From Phoronis australis (Eukaryota; Animalia; Phoronida), in the NCBI GenBank assembly GCA_002633005.1, contig NMRA01000006.1:2069818-2133817 (forward strand): a stretch of DNA of 64,000 nt, read 5' to 3'. The position numbers and the translations under genes are program-made. The notes under the pieces were generated by a model, which did no database searches, had not been told where the DNA came from, and was given only the letters and a program-made list of their open reading frames with translations. Below are positions 16,510 through 18,603 of this stretch, piece by piece (the first letter of the stretch is position 1; every line of letters begins with the position of its first letter).

Positions 16510-18603
16510 NTGGCCATAGGTGGTAATTTGCTGCAGATTCAGGAGGGGAAGGAGAGGGTTATTGCCTATGCTAGTGTTTCTCTGACTCCTGAACAGCGTC
16601 GTTACTGTACTACCCGCAAGGAACTTTTGGCTATTATTCGTTTTACGAGACAATTTCGACACTTCTTATTGGGTAGGTCATTTAAGGTTCGTACAGACGA
16701 TAGTAGTCTACAATGGTTAATTAATTTTAAGAATCCCGAGGGTCAATTAGCCAGGTGGTTGGAAGAGCTAAGTCAGTATGACATGTTGATTGAGTATCGC
16801 CAGGGTTGTCATCATGGTAATGCTGATGCTTTATCTCGTTTGAACACTCCTATCAGTTGCTGGGAATTCCGCCATGGTGTAAGGTTGGAGGATTTGCCTT
16901 GTGGGGGATGTTCCTATTGTACTCGCTTGCATGATGCCTGGGATAGGTTTATAGTTGAAGTGGATAATGTTCAACCGTTGTTTGATCGTAGACGAACAGC
17001 ATATGAGAAGAGATGTAAACGTCAGGCTAATGCTGAGAGAGAGCCTTTGTGGGAGGCATCCAAGGAATTGCTGTCAATTCGTAAAGTTGACTTTGTGGCT
17101 GCTGGAAGAGATATTGCTTCGGAACAGCGTAAAGATCCTCATGTATCATTGCTGTTGACCTGGTTGGAGCGGGGGTTGTCTCCAGGTGAAGGGGAATTAT
17201 TTTTAGCCAGTAAGGAGTCAAAAACTTTATGGGTTAACCGTGATCGTTTCCTGCTTAAGGATGGTTGTGTTTTCTTTAAGCGGAAAGAAGACGATAGGCT
17301 GGTTTGTTTTGTTCCATCTTCGTTACGACAGGAGATATTAGCTATTGGTCATGATATTCCGTGTTCGGGTCATCAAGGGGTAGCTCGTACTACTAAGAGA
17401 ATGAAAGCTAAATATTATTGGCCGGGTATGACTTCTGCGATTAAGCAGTACATTGGCTCCTGTGATAGGTGTGGTTTGAGTAAGAAACCGAATCGATATC
17501 CTAAGAAACCCTTGGATATCTATCAGGCATCGTTGCCTATGGAACGGGTGCATCTAGATTTTTTAGGTCCATTGCCAGTGACTCCTAGAGGGAAGGAGCA
17601 TATCCTAGTTATGGTGGATCAGTTCACGAAGTGGGTGGAGTGTATACCTGTTGAGTCTCAGACAGCGGAGATTACCGCTCAGACTGCAGTGGAGCATTTC
17701 TTCTCCCGTTTTGGATTCCCGTTTCAGATCTTTACAGATAGGGGATCTAACTTTGAAAGTGAACTGTTTACTCAACTATGTACTTTAACAAGGGTGCATA
17801 AATCTAGTACGACTGCTTATCGACCTAGTGCTAATGGACAATGCGAGCGATTTAATCGCACTTTAATGGACGCGGTGCGATGCTACGTAGATAAGCAGCA
17901 GTCGGATTGGGACCTCTTCATTCCCCAGATAGCATGCGCCCTACGATCATGTGTTAATCGGAATACCGGTTTTAGTCCAAATTACCTCATGTTAGGACGT
18001 GAAATTGTGTTGCCGCCAGAGTTAGTTTATCCAGTCCCCAGAGAGGGAGCAACAACCATGGATAATTATTTAGCCAGTTTGGTTGAGGCAAGTGAAATAG
18101 CTCATGAGACAGCAAGAAAAACTTTACAGGCTTCCCAGAAACACATGAAGCGGGCTTATGATGTTAAGCTGTATAAGCTAAGCTATTCGGTCGGTCAACC
18201 AGTGTTGATTTTGGATTCGGCCACTGTTAAAGGAATGTGTAAAAAACTGACTTCCCCTTGGAAGGGACCCGCAATCATTTTGGAAAAACTGTCAGACTAT
18301 TTATATAGGGTTAAAACCCATAATAGCATTACTGTGGTGAATCACGATAGGCTCATAGCCTGTAAGTTTAGACAGTTACCAGGATGGATTGAAAATCATA
18401 TGCAAAATCCTCAATTATTGCGGGAAGTAATCAAGGATAAAGGCAAGTTTTACTGTATATGCCGAAGACCTTATGATGGTCGGAGTATGATTGAGTGCTG
18501 TGGTTGCAAAGACTGGTTCCACGCCGACTGTGTAGATTTGAATGATGACCGAATGGCTTATTTTGCAAACATCGACTATTATTGTCCGTTGTGTGCCCCA
18601 TGA
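16510..18603 (+). CDS. Gypsy Pol, 3' part: RNase H - integrase (HHCC, DDE, GPY/F) - C-terminal PHD finger; 5'-truncated at n
   Basis: [44 protein letters not shown]...GHQG...[40 protein letters not shown]...[16 protein letters not shown]...YYCPLC; no stops over ~2.1 kb. Confidence 0.93.

What the first reader, a model, noticed from the sequence alone, without database searches (positions are those of the whole stretch)
18451..18603. Gypsy integrase ends in a PHF2/PHF8-like PHD finger with an intact H3K4me3 aromatic cage
Seen: in-frame after the GPY/F region, Pol ends [28 protein letters not shown]...YYCPLC, a complete C4HC3 finger. Known: PHD fingers of PHF2/PHF8/KDM7A and BPTF (YCxCRxPYD...MIxC..C..WFH) read H3K4me3 through a Y-Y-M-W cage, and chromoviruses carry a chromodomain at this same position to steer integration. 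All four cage residues are present here. Inference: this lineage may have replaced the chromodomain with a captured H3K4me3 reader, i.e. a PHD-targeted LTR retrotransposon. The element is young (one LTR mismatch, no stops), so the fusion is probably under selection.
Basis: partly seen in the sequence, partly recalled or inferred. Interest (0 to 1): 0.8.

Follow-up and report, generated by a model that had tools for sequence, protein, structure and literature searches.

The report
Gypsy integrase with histone-reading PHD finger
A recently inserted jumping gene in this animal genome has a complete PHD finger fused to the end of its integrase, as does an old, widespread group of such elements in marine invertebrates that mostly also carry a TatD nuclease gene, and the finger likely docks the enzyme on histone H3 methylated at lysine 4, though neither binding nor targeting has been shown.

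Summary
Pol ends in frame in a complete C4HC3 PHD finger (18451-18594; Pfam 30.7 bits) of the DIDO1/PHF2/CXXC1/BPTF class, with Y647-Y654-M659-W668. The LTRs differ at 1 of 226 bases. However, gag, protease and RT are missing at an N at 16510. The fusion is old, not a local novelty: 128 of 216 proteins examined have integrase C-terminus plus PHD, the finger diverges in step with integrase, and it is under purifying selection. Y/F, M and W are nearly invariant; the second Tyr is not (21 of 109). The window copy lacks the usual R2-pocket Asp. 'Replaced a chromodomain' is unsupported: 0 of 29 PHD-less relatives have one. In full-length relatives the layout is HhH-Gag, Pol-PHD, then ORF3 with a TatD nuclease (18 of 18 long loci); the window family keeps ORF3 but lacks TatD. 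Best reading: an H3K4me tether for the intasome (0.5). Binding and targeting are untested, and this one insertion site does not look like a promoter. My searches found no paper describing the clade, but PHD-transposon fusions are known and Repbase/GyDB were not searchable. This scan noted the PHD fusion and the TatD gene before, separately, on other DNA.

The parts
16130..16133 (+). 4-bp target-site duplication, left copy (right copy 20553-20556)
16134..16359 (+). 5' LTR, 226 bp, TG...CA ends
   Evidence: RNA reads of other copies leave the window at 16359 and 20552
16366..16379 (+). Primer-binding site 6 nt after the LTR; tRNA-Lys type (assignment recalled, no tRNA compared)
16510..16510 (.). 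Single N where gag, protease and RT are missing from the assembly
   Evidence: reads and contigs run on unlike the window on both sides (loose ends at 16509 and 16513)
16513..18603 (+). 3' part of pol, 696 aa open: RNase H (16513-16779), H2C2 (17311-17487), integrase core with D349-D409-E445 (17536-17826 by Pfam), SH3-like C-terminal domain with WKGP (from 18259), linker, PHD
18451..18594 (+). C4HC3 PHD finger, DIDO1/PHF2/CXXC1/BPTF class; cage Y647, Y654, M659, W668; Cys663 where 84 of 109 complete fingers have Asp
18600..19910 (+). ORF3 (first ATG overlaps the pol stop; 453 aa stop to stop from 18549): low-complexity middle, then a C2H2-like finger plus helical 'HWR' module (19530-19886) homologous to the clade's ORF3; ends before the TatD domain that relatives carry
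   Evidence: contigs bridge the stop
20313..20326 (+). Polypurine tract
   Evidence: near-identical tract and LTR start in TatD-bearing locus L025
20327..20552 (+). 3' LTR, 226 bp, 1 mismatch to the 5' LTR

Best explanation
This is a young copy of an old Ty3/Gypsy clade of marine invertebrates whose integrase ends in a conserved PHD finger that likely binds the histone H3 tail methylated at lysine 4 and would thereby tether the integration complex to active or open chromatin. SHOWN: in-frame terminal fusion; complete zinc ligands; near-invariant Y/F-M-W; long co-inheritance with integrase; purifying selection; a clade layout of HhH-Gag, Pol-PHD and ORF3-TatD, with TatD absent in this family. 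PREDICTED: a PHD fold as a separate module after the SH3-like C-terminal domain, superimposing on H3K4me3-bound DIDO1/PPS/PHF2 fingers. INFERRED: the finger stays on mature integrase; it binds H3K4me3/me2 (about 0.75); the binding biases insertion (about 0.5). The variable fourth cage position (Asp 44, Trp 22, Tyr 21 of 109) may tune the methyl state read.
For: Pfam PHD above cut-off at the C-terminus of an open RNase H-integrase frame. The best PDB sequence and fold matches are DIDO1, PPS, PHF2, PHF8, KDM7A, CXXC1 and BPTF fingers, several solved with H3K4me3, rmsd 1.1-1.8 A over about 50 residues; model mean pLDDT 88.7. 57 of 65 hits carry integrase plus PHD Pfam domains; 128 of 216 proteins examined have C-terminal domain then PHD. 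Cage: Y/F 104, M 103, W 107 of 109 complete fingers. Mean pairwise identity: PHD 0.51 (0.40 without Cys/His columns), C-terminal domain 0.49, linker 0.14, 103 proteins. dN/dS: PHD 0.064, core 0.040, linker 0.18, from 2 unsaturated pairs. 12 of 15 listed variants among sister copies in this genome are synonymous, 3 of 3 in the PHD. PHD and C-terminal-domain distances covary (rho 0.63, 0 of 999 permutations). A second, ING-like PHD sits at the same position in P0210 (by eye). Feasibility: an ING2 PHD fused to the LEDGF integrase-binding domain moved HIV-1 integration toward start sites (PMC8149907, passage).
Against: No binding or insertion-site data exist here; no genome was held. The one insertion site seen lies among other transposons, beside high-depth repeats, and CpG observed/expected is 0.39-0.54 in the four 1-kb bins upstream (12001-16000; 0.79 at 21001-22000), which does not look like an unmethylated promoter (n = 1). 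The window copy has Cys663 where 84 of 109 have Asp (1 of 109 has Cys); that Asp contacts H3R2 in BPTF/ING fingers (recalled), so this copy may bind less well. The window PHD is an outlier in its own clade (45.5 bits leave-one-out, below the neighbouring DNA-transposon PHD at 55.0). PHF2's finger also binds a non-histone VRK1 peptide (PDB titles). Relatives were collected by similarity to the PHD-containing tail, which inflates PHD conservation. The dN/dS estimate rests on 13 changes. Promoter targeting should be costly, an argument the Grau-Bove preprint makes for bromodomains.
Confidence: 0.5

Rival explanations
1. The finger binds H3K4-methylated nucleosomes but does not choose sites. It would hold the pre-integration complex on chromatin or raise integration efficiency, or act after integration to keep the new copy from being silenced.
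For: The same conservation evidence applies. The single observed site is not promoter-like. De Mendoza et al. raise the same caveat for the Copia MBD (PMC6673714, passage).
Against: The position after the integrase C-terminal domain is where chromoviruses place a reader that does steer insertion, and a PHD tether is sufficient to redirect integration.
Confidence: 0.25
2. The finger binds something other than methylated H3K4: a histone-mimic N-terminus of a host protein, a protease-generated end of the element's own proteins, ORF3, or nucleic acid.
For: The PHF2 PHD is solved with a VRK1 N-terminal peptide (7m10, 8f8y). The fourth cage residue is non-aromatic in most members and this copy lacks the R2-pocket Asp. 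PHD and ORF3-TatD travel together in 18 of 18 long loci.
Against: W (107 of 109), M (103) and Y/F (104) are kept across proteins only about 40-50% identical, which is the methyl-lysine pocket signature. The window family lost TatD but kept the finger.
Confidence: 0.15
3. The finger is cleaved off Pol by the element's protease, or is a structural or dimerising zinc module, and never rides on the intasome.
For: The linker is poorly conserved (0.14 identity) and low in confidence in the model (pLDDT 69 at residues 141-150, pTM 0.58). Some close relatives lack the finger (P0107, P0141).
Against: Spacing from WKGP to the finger stays at 48-65 residues in the set, and surface cage residues are conserved, not only zinc ligands.
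Confidence: 0.07
4. Chance read-through into a captured host fragment, a neutral passenger, or an assembly artefact.
For: The element has an assembly N at 16510.
Against: The gap is about 1.9 kb upstream of the finger. Sister copies about 87% alike run across the integrase-PHD junction in four DNA runs of one sample. More than 100 divergent relatives share the fusion.
Confidence: 0.02

Closest known systems
Chromoviruses (Ty3/Gypsy with a chromodomain at the integrase C-terminus, e.g. MAGGY)
   Same: Gypsy domain order; a histone-reader domain at the very end of Pol after the GPY/F module; proposed tethering role (PMC12440569, PMC6673714 and the Grau-Bove preprint, passages).
   Different: No chromodomain in the window Pol or in 29 PHD-less relatives. 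The clade also has HhH-Gag and ORF3-TatD.
PHD fingers of DIDO1/PPS, PHF2/PHF8/KDM7A, CXXC1/Spp1, BPTF
   Same: C4HC3 spacing, Y-x-M-W pocket and predicted fold; 63-74 bits against the clade profile for the animal proteins.
   Different: Fused to an integrase. The fourth cage residue is mostly Asp or Trp. The window copy has Cys for the conserved Asp after C3. No single donor family can be told.
Ginger1 and Mutator transposases with Ulp1 + PHD (Bao et al. 2010, PMC2836005)
   Same: A Gypsy-like DDE enzyme with a C-terminal PHD (Ginger1-9_HM; passages). A broken element with Ulp1 + PHD lies at about 13430-15405, and its finger scores 54-55 bits against the clade profile.
   Different: Those are cut-and-paste DNA transposons with Ulp1 between the DDE domain and the PHD. 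This element has LTRs, PBS, PPT and RNase H, and no Ulp1.
PHD-transposon fusions catalogued by Grau-Bove et al. (bioRxiv 10.1101/2021.11.30.470311), and PHDs in CR1, Chlamys and Rehavkus elements (PMC8557442, PMC6673714)
   Same: PHD is, with Chromo, the commonest reader fused to transposon domains, including integrases and reverse transcriptases (section 10 read).
   Different: The text names PYGO-type fusions in cnidarians and Chromo-Gypsy elements, not an integrase-terminal DIDO/PHF2-type clade. Its Supplementary Table 6 was not seen and may list members.
Bdelloid rotifer Juno/Vesta LTR elements with a DEDDy exonuclease ORF3 (PMC5408684)
   Same: A nuclease rather than env as third ORF (passages).
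   Different: Here the nuclease is TatD, absent from the window family; the rotifer paper reports no chromodomain after GPY/F, and the PHD mention in it was not among the passages shown.

Membership tests
Ty3/Gypsy LTR retrotransposon | Direct LTRs with TG...CA ends, target duplication, PBS, PPT | tested here: met
Ty3/Gypsy LTR retrotransposon | pol order PR-RT-RH-IN | tested here: met
   RH before IN in the window; PR and RT lie in the gap here, full order shown in relative L031
Ty3/Gypsy LTR retrotransposon | Integrase with HHCC, D-D(35)-E and GPY/F module | tested here: met
   H280, H287, C317, C320; D349, D409, E445; WKGPAII variant at 583
Chromovirus | Chromodomain at the integrase C-terminus | tested here: not met
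   No Chromo hit in P0001 or in 29 PHD-less relatives
Chromovirus | RT/IN phylogeny within the chromoviral branch | not testable with these tools
   No named reference Gypsy sequences could be fetched; the trees hold only unnamed relatives and one fish element as outgroup
H3K4me3-reader PHD (PHF2/DIDO1/BPTF class) | C4HC3 ligands and PHD fold | tested here: met
H3K4me3-reader PHD (PHF2/DIDO1/BPTF class) | Aromatic cage Y-(Y)-M-W | tested here: met
   Y647, Y654, M659, W668 in the window; Y/F-M-W in 98 of 109 and YYMW in 17 of 109 complete fingers
H3K4me3-reader PHD (PHF2/DIDO1/BPTF class) | Acidic pocket for H3R2 (role recalled) | tested here: inconclusive
   The Asp after C3 is Cys663 in the window; the acid before W (D667) and E661 are kept
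H3K4me3-reader PHD (PHF2/DIDO1/BPTF class) | Measured methyl-dependent binding to the H3 tail | not testable with these tools
   Needs peptide binding assays; methyl-lysine cannot be modelled here
Ginger1/Ginger2 DNA transposon | Terminal inverted repeats, no RT or RNase H, Ulp1/OTU tail | tested here: not met
   LTRs and RNase H present, no Ulp1 in P0001
MolGy1-16 / named Gypsy clades (PMC6238403) | RT/RNase H tree position against the published families | not testable with these tools
   The paper defines clades by RT/RH only and has no 'PHD' in its main text; its supplements were listed but not opened

The most novel reading that the evidence does not exclude
An undescribed, ancient Gypsy clade of molluscs and echinoderms is the mirror image of chromoviruses. 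It carries its own H3K4-methyl reader on integrase and steers insertion to active chromatin without a host tethering factor, tunes the methyl state through a Tyr/Trp/Asp switch, has gained a PHD more than once (an ING-type finger in P0210), and packs a helix-hairpin-helix Gag and a TatD nuclease as a three-part accessory kit.
Probability: 0.35. Interest if true: 0.8.

Novelty: new variant of a known kind. Interest (0 to 1): 0.58.

Why it matters
Self-encoded chromatin targeting in LTR elements is established for chromodomains, which steer away from genes; PHD fingers on transposons are often noted but, in the papers I saw, not tested. This clade gives a clean natural test. It offers a 48-residue reader at the chromodomain position, dozens of natural cage variants, and PHD-less sister families as controls for insertion-site comparisons. 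If it targets H3K4me chromatin, it is a built-in source of regulatory mutation in shellfish and echinoderm genomes and a compact natural module for directing integration. In practice, these Pol-PHD and TatD genes sit in public bacterial genome bins and are labelled as bacterial transposases.

Tried and rejected
No host genome was held, so copy census, full-length copies and insertion-site statistics were not possible. No RNA holder was listed in the index. Three RNA runs of the same species label, 18-19% of each read, gave 134, 110 and 53 reads on 16000-20700, mostly LTR, leader and flanking repeat, with depth 0-0.95 over the PHD bins: no evidence either way on germline expression. Viral contigs gave nothing. 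The search for related loci with the 33-row alignment found no conserved seed. A PHD-only search for host proteins of 382-1218 aa returned no candidate, so no tree against host PHDs was built; the PDB profile ranking stands in. ORF3 has no Pfam or ESM Atlas match; windowed ORF3 profiles missed it until the finger-to-HWR module was delimited. The 70-bit full-ORF3 hit was not relied on, because low complexity may inflate it. A PBS scan of relatives was uninformative apart from the L025 PPT. A single origin of all DIDO/PHF2-type fingers is neither shown nor rejected (p-AU 0.063; the group was chosen after seeing the tree). The lead from earlier scan notes to PMC5890265 was checked: no 'PHD' in its main text. 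Literature searches that found no description of the clade. Repbase, GyDB, Dfam and subscription journals were not searchable, and the journal version of the Grau-Bove paper is not held.

Full report
1. The observation. The frame from 16513 is open for 696 residues and ends at TGA 18601-18603. Pfam finds RNase H (1-89), the integrase H2C2 finger (267-325), the core (342-438), a weak p58 C-terminal hit (585-614) and a PHD at 648-694, 30.7 bits against a cut-off of 24. The catalytic residues are D349, D409 and E445, and the GPY/F motif reads WKGPAII. The finger has all eight zinc ligands and Y647, Y654, M659, W668. Its best solved relatives are DIDO1 (E 8e-12), PHF2 (2e-11), KDM7A, PPS and PHF8. 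An AlphaFold2 model of the last 197 residues, from a 33-row alignment, has mean pLDDT 88.7 and pTM 0.58: helix, SH3-like barrel, linker, separate finger. Foldseek ranks PPS-H3K4me3, DIDO-H3K4me3 and PHF2-H3K4me3 structures among the top six, rmsd 1.1-1.8 A.

2. The element. The LTRs are 16134-16359 and 20327-20552, 226 bp with one mismatch, flanked by a 4-bp duplication; a PBS starts at 16366 and a PPT precedes the 3' LTR. It is young, but incomplete as assembled: one N at 16510 joins the leader to RNase H. Reads and contigs run on unlike the window on both sides; on the 3' side the continuation resembles the start of RNase H in the full-length relative P0005. An assembly gap is therefore the likelier cause, though a deleted copy is not excluded. 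In four DNA runs of one sample, contigs with 40-44 differences in 330 bases run across the integrase-PHD junction, so sister copies keep the fusion. Of the 15 variants listed in the pol frame, out of the 40 best-supported rows shown (181 not shown), 12 are synonymous, including all 3 in the PHD. The host is an unnamed invertebrate-like animal genome (inference from the neighbouring genes and the relatives).

3. The fusion defines an old clade. A search with the window tail among long proteins gave one full Pol with a PHD (P0005). Searching with its tail gave 65 proteins, 57 with integrase and PHD domains; names given by sources include Nucella lapillus, Diadema setosum, Acanthaster planci, and bacterial bins from bivalve symbionts that are probably host contamination (inference). 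A full HMMER scan gave 444 representatives at E 1e-10 or better, 150 listed. Of the 216 proteins in hand, 128 have the C-terminal domain followed by a PHD, 54 end within 75 residues, 28 have a long tail without a profile hit, and 6 are PHD-only. The ESM Atlas holds a matching cluster (score 0.97, PHD in 99%, commonest phylum Mollusca) and an integrase-PHD cluster (0.81, a lead only). On an integrase tree that leaves out the PHD, 18 PHD-bearing rows, the window among them, and one PHD-less row form a 99/99 clade; two more PHD-bearing rows lie outside among PHD-less elements, and holding all together is not rejected (p-AU 0.063; 31 selected rows). A 60-row quick tree, with 25 close rows dropped, agrees. 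PHD and C-terminal-domain distances covary across 103 proteins (rho 0.63, 0 of 999 permutations; 0.49 among distant pairs), which points to long co-inheritance rather than repeated recent capture. None of 29 PHD-less relatives has a chromodomain, so 'replacement' has no support.

4. Selection and the cage. Mean pairwise identity is 0.51 in the PHD (0.40 without Cys/His columns), 0.49 in the C-terminal domain and 0.14 in the linker. Among 49 DNA sequences (48 loci and the window), 14 had a frameshift or stop between WKGP and the finger. Of the 35 kept, only 2 disjoint pairs were unsaturated; they give dN/dS 0.064 for the PHD (3 non-synonymous, 10 synonymous), 0.040 for the core and 0.18 for the linker. 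In the 109 of 128 fingers that are complete, cage position 1 is Y/F in 104, M is kept in 103 and W in 107; the second Tyr is Asp in 44, Trp in 22 and Tyr in 21, and only 17 have YYMW. A three-sided cage suffices in ING fingers, and an acid at the fourth position shifts preference toward K4me2 in BPTF Y17E (the first recalled; the second suggested by the PDB title of 2ri7). Against the reading: the window copy has Cys663 where 84 of 109 have Asp, a residue that contacts H3R2 in BPTF and ING (recalled). All these sets were collected by similarity to a PHD-containing tail, which favours conservation.

5. Origin of the finger. A 34-row profile scores PHF2 73.8, CXXC1 71.6, PHF8 70.7, DIDO1 70.5, KDM7A 70.4, BPTF 65.8, TAF3 44 and ING about 30 bits: the class is clear, the donor is not. 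A broken DNA transposon 5' of the element (H2C2, Cys-rich, Ulp1, PHD) has a finger scoring 55.0 against the profile built without the window row, more than the window's own 45.5, so transfer between transposons is as open as host capture. P0210, a Gag-Pol outside the main clade, ends in an ING-like finger by eye (no Pfam PHD hit at E 0.01), hinting at a second acquisition.

6. The rest of the clade's anatomy. A pattern spanning WKGP to the finger matched once in the window (0 in 100 shuffles), 39 times in metagenome contigs and 10 times in prokaryote genome bins, 9 of those from one bin; these come from few sources and are not independent. Full-length ones read gag, pol-PHD, ORF3. Gag has an N-terminal helix-hairpin-helix hit in 5 of 5 tested (1 above cut-off), a PNMA-like capsid and a zinc knuckle; ORF3 ends in TatD in 4 of 4 tested by Pfam (117-136 bits). 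All 18 loci with at least 3.3 kb after the finger hit a TatD profile; 9 of them helped train it and 9 did not. The TatD metal-ligand motifs look intact in 14 aligned. The window's ORF3 has no Pfam hit, but residues 328-446 match the clade's finger-to-HWR module at 40.5 bits (best of 1000 shuffles 4.3), and the frame stops right after it. Contigs bridge that stop (19469-19948), so this family really lacks TatD. The PHD is thus kept without TatD.

7. Mechanism. Best reading (0.5): the finger stays on integrase, binds the H3 tail methylated at K4 and holds the intasome on active chromatin, biasing insertion. Fusion, conservation and class are shown; fold is predicted; binding and targeting are inferred by analogy with chromoviruses and with the ING2-PHD/LEDGF fusion that moved HIV-1 integration toward start sites. 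The single site here argues mildly against promoter targeting: it lies among transposons, beside repeats of very high contig depth, in CpG-poor DNA on the upstream side. Rivals: chromatin retention or post-integration protection without site choice (0.25), a non-histone ligand (0.15), cleavage or a structural role (0.07), artefact (0.02).

8. What is known. [quoted passage not shown] Passages plus one whole section: the Grau-Bove preprint, section 10 (823 chromatin-transposon fusion models, most with PHD or Chromo) and PMC6238403, section 6 (supplements listed, not opened). Ten searches showed no description of an integrase-terminal PHD Gypsy clade or of TatD in an LTR element; most hits were seen only as listings. 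Repbase, GyDB and the unseen Grau-Bove supplement could hold it. Earlier notes of this scan report the PHD fusion in three other windows and the TatD ORF3 in a sea urchin, separately; none held all the words together.

9. Verdict. Real, conserved and probably functional; a new variant of a known kind (reader-tipped Gypsy integrase), not a chromovirus by its defining domain. Interest 0.58.

Noticed in passing
window 13430-15405 (+): Broken Ginger2/KRBA-like DNA transposon (name by recalled resemblance): integrase H2C2 finger, no catalytic core seen, Cys-rich stretch, Ulp1 protease and a PHD of the same class as the Gypsy finger.
   Followed up: partly
window 10297-12153 (+): Open 618-aa piggyBac-type transposase (PF13843, 311 bits) with a C-terminal Cys-rich finger.
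   Followed up: partly
window 18600-18603: The first ATG of ORF3 overlaps the pol stop codon (ATGA), a layout that could allow termination-reinitiation (recalled).
   Followed up: no
window 17164 to 19695: A joint skipping 2530 bases appears in two RNA runs and in DNA contigs: an internally deleted derivative lacking integrase and PHD exists in this species.
   Followed up: no
P0210 (C-terminal 50 aa): A related Gag-Pol ends in an ING-like PHD by eye instead of the DIDO/PHF2 type: possible independent capture at the same position.
   Followed up: partly
L008, L020, L031, L042, L045 (gag): Gag begins with a helix-hairpin-helix motif ahead of a PNMA-like capsid; one paper search found no description.
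   Followed up: partly
L040-L049: Ten loci of this eukaryotic element sit in prokaryote genome bins, nine in one Sedimenticola bin: probable host-animal contamination of a species-representative genome.
   Followed up: no
L003, L021, L025: Contigs of 8.9-11.8 kb close on themselves with 99-base terminal repeats, as expected for collapsed multi-copy LTR elements or one-LTR circles.
   Followed up: no
window 23790-24484 (+): Frameshifted reading frames resembling a YqaJ-like recombinase (by eye).
   Followed up: no
window 40393-41283 (+), 46788-47147 (+), 57416-57874 (-): Host exons resembling fascin and COX11 (by eye); CpG observed/expected is near 1 over much of 35-51 kb and mostly 0.3-0.55 in non-transposon bins of 2-16 kb, suggesting a mosaic-methylated genome.
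   Followed up: no
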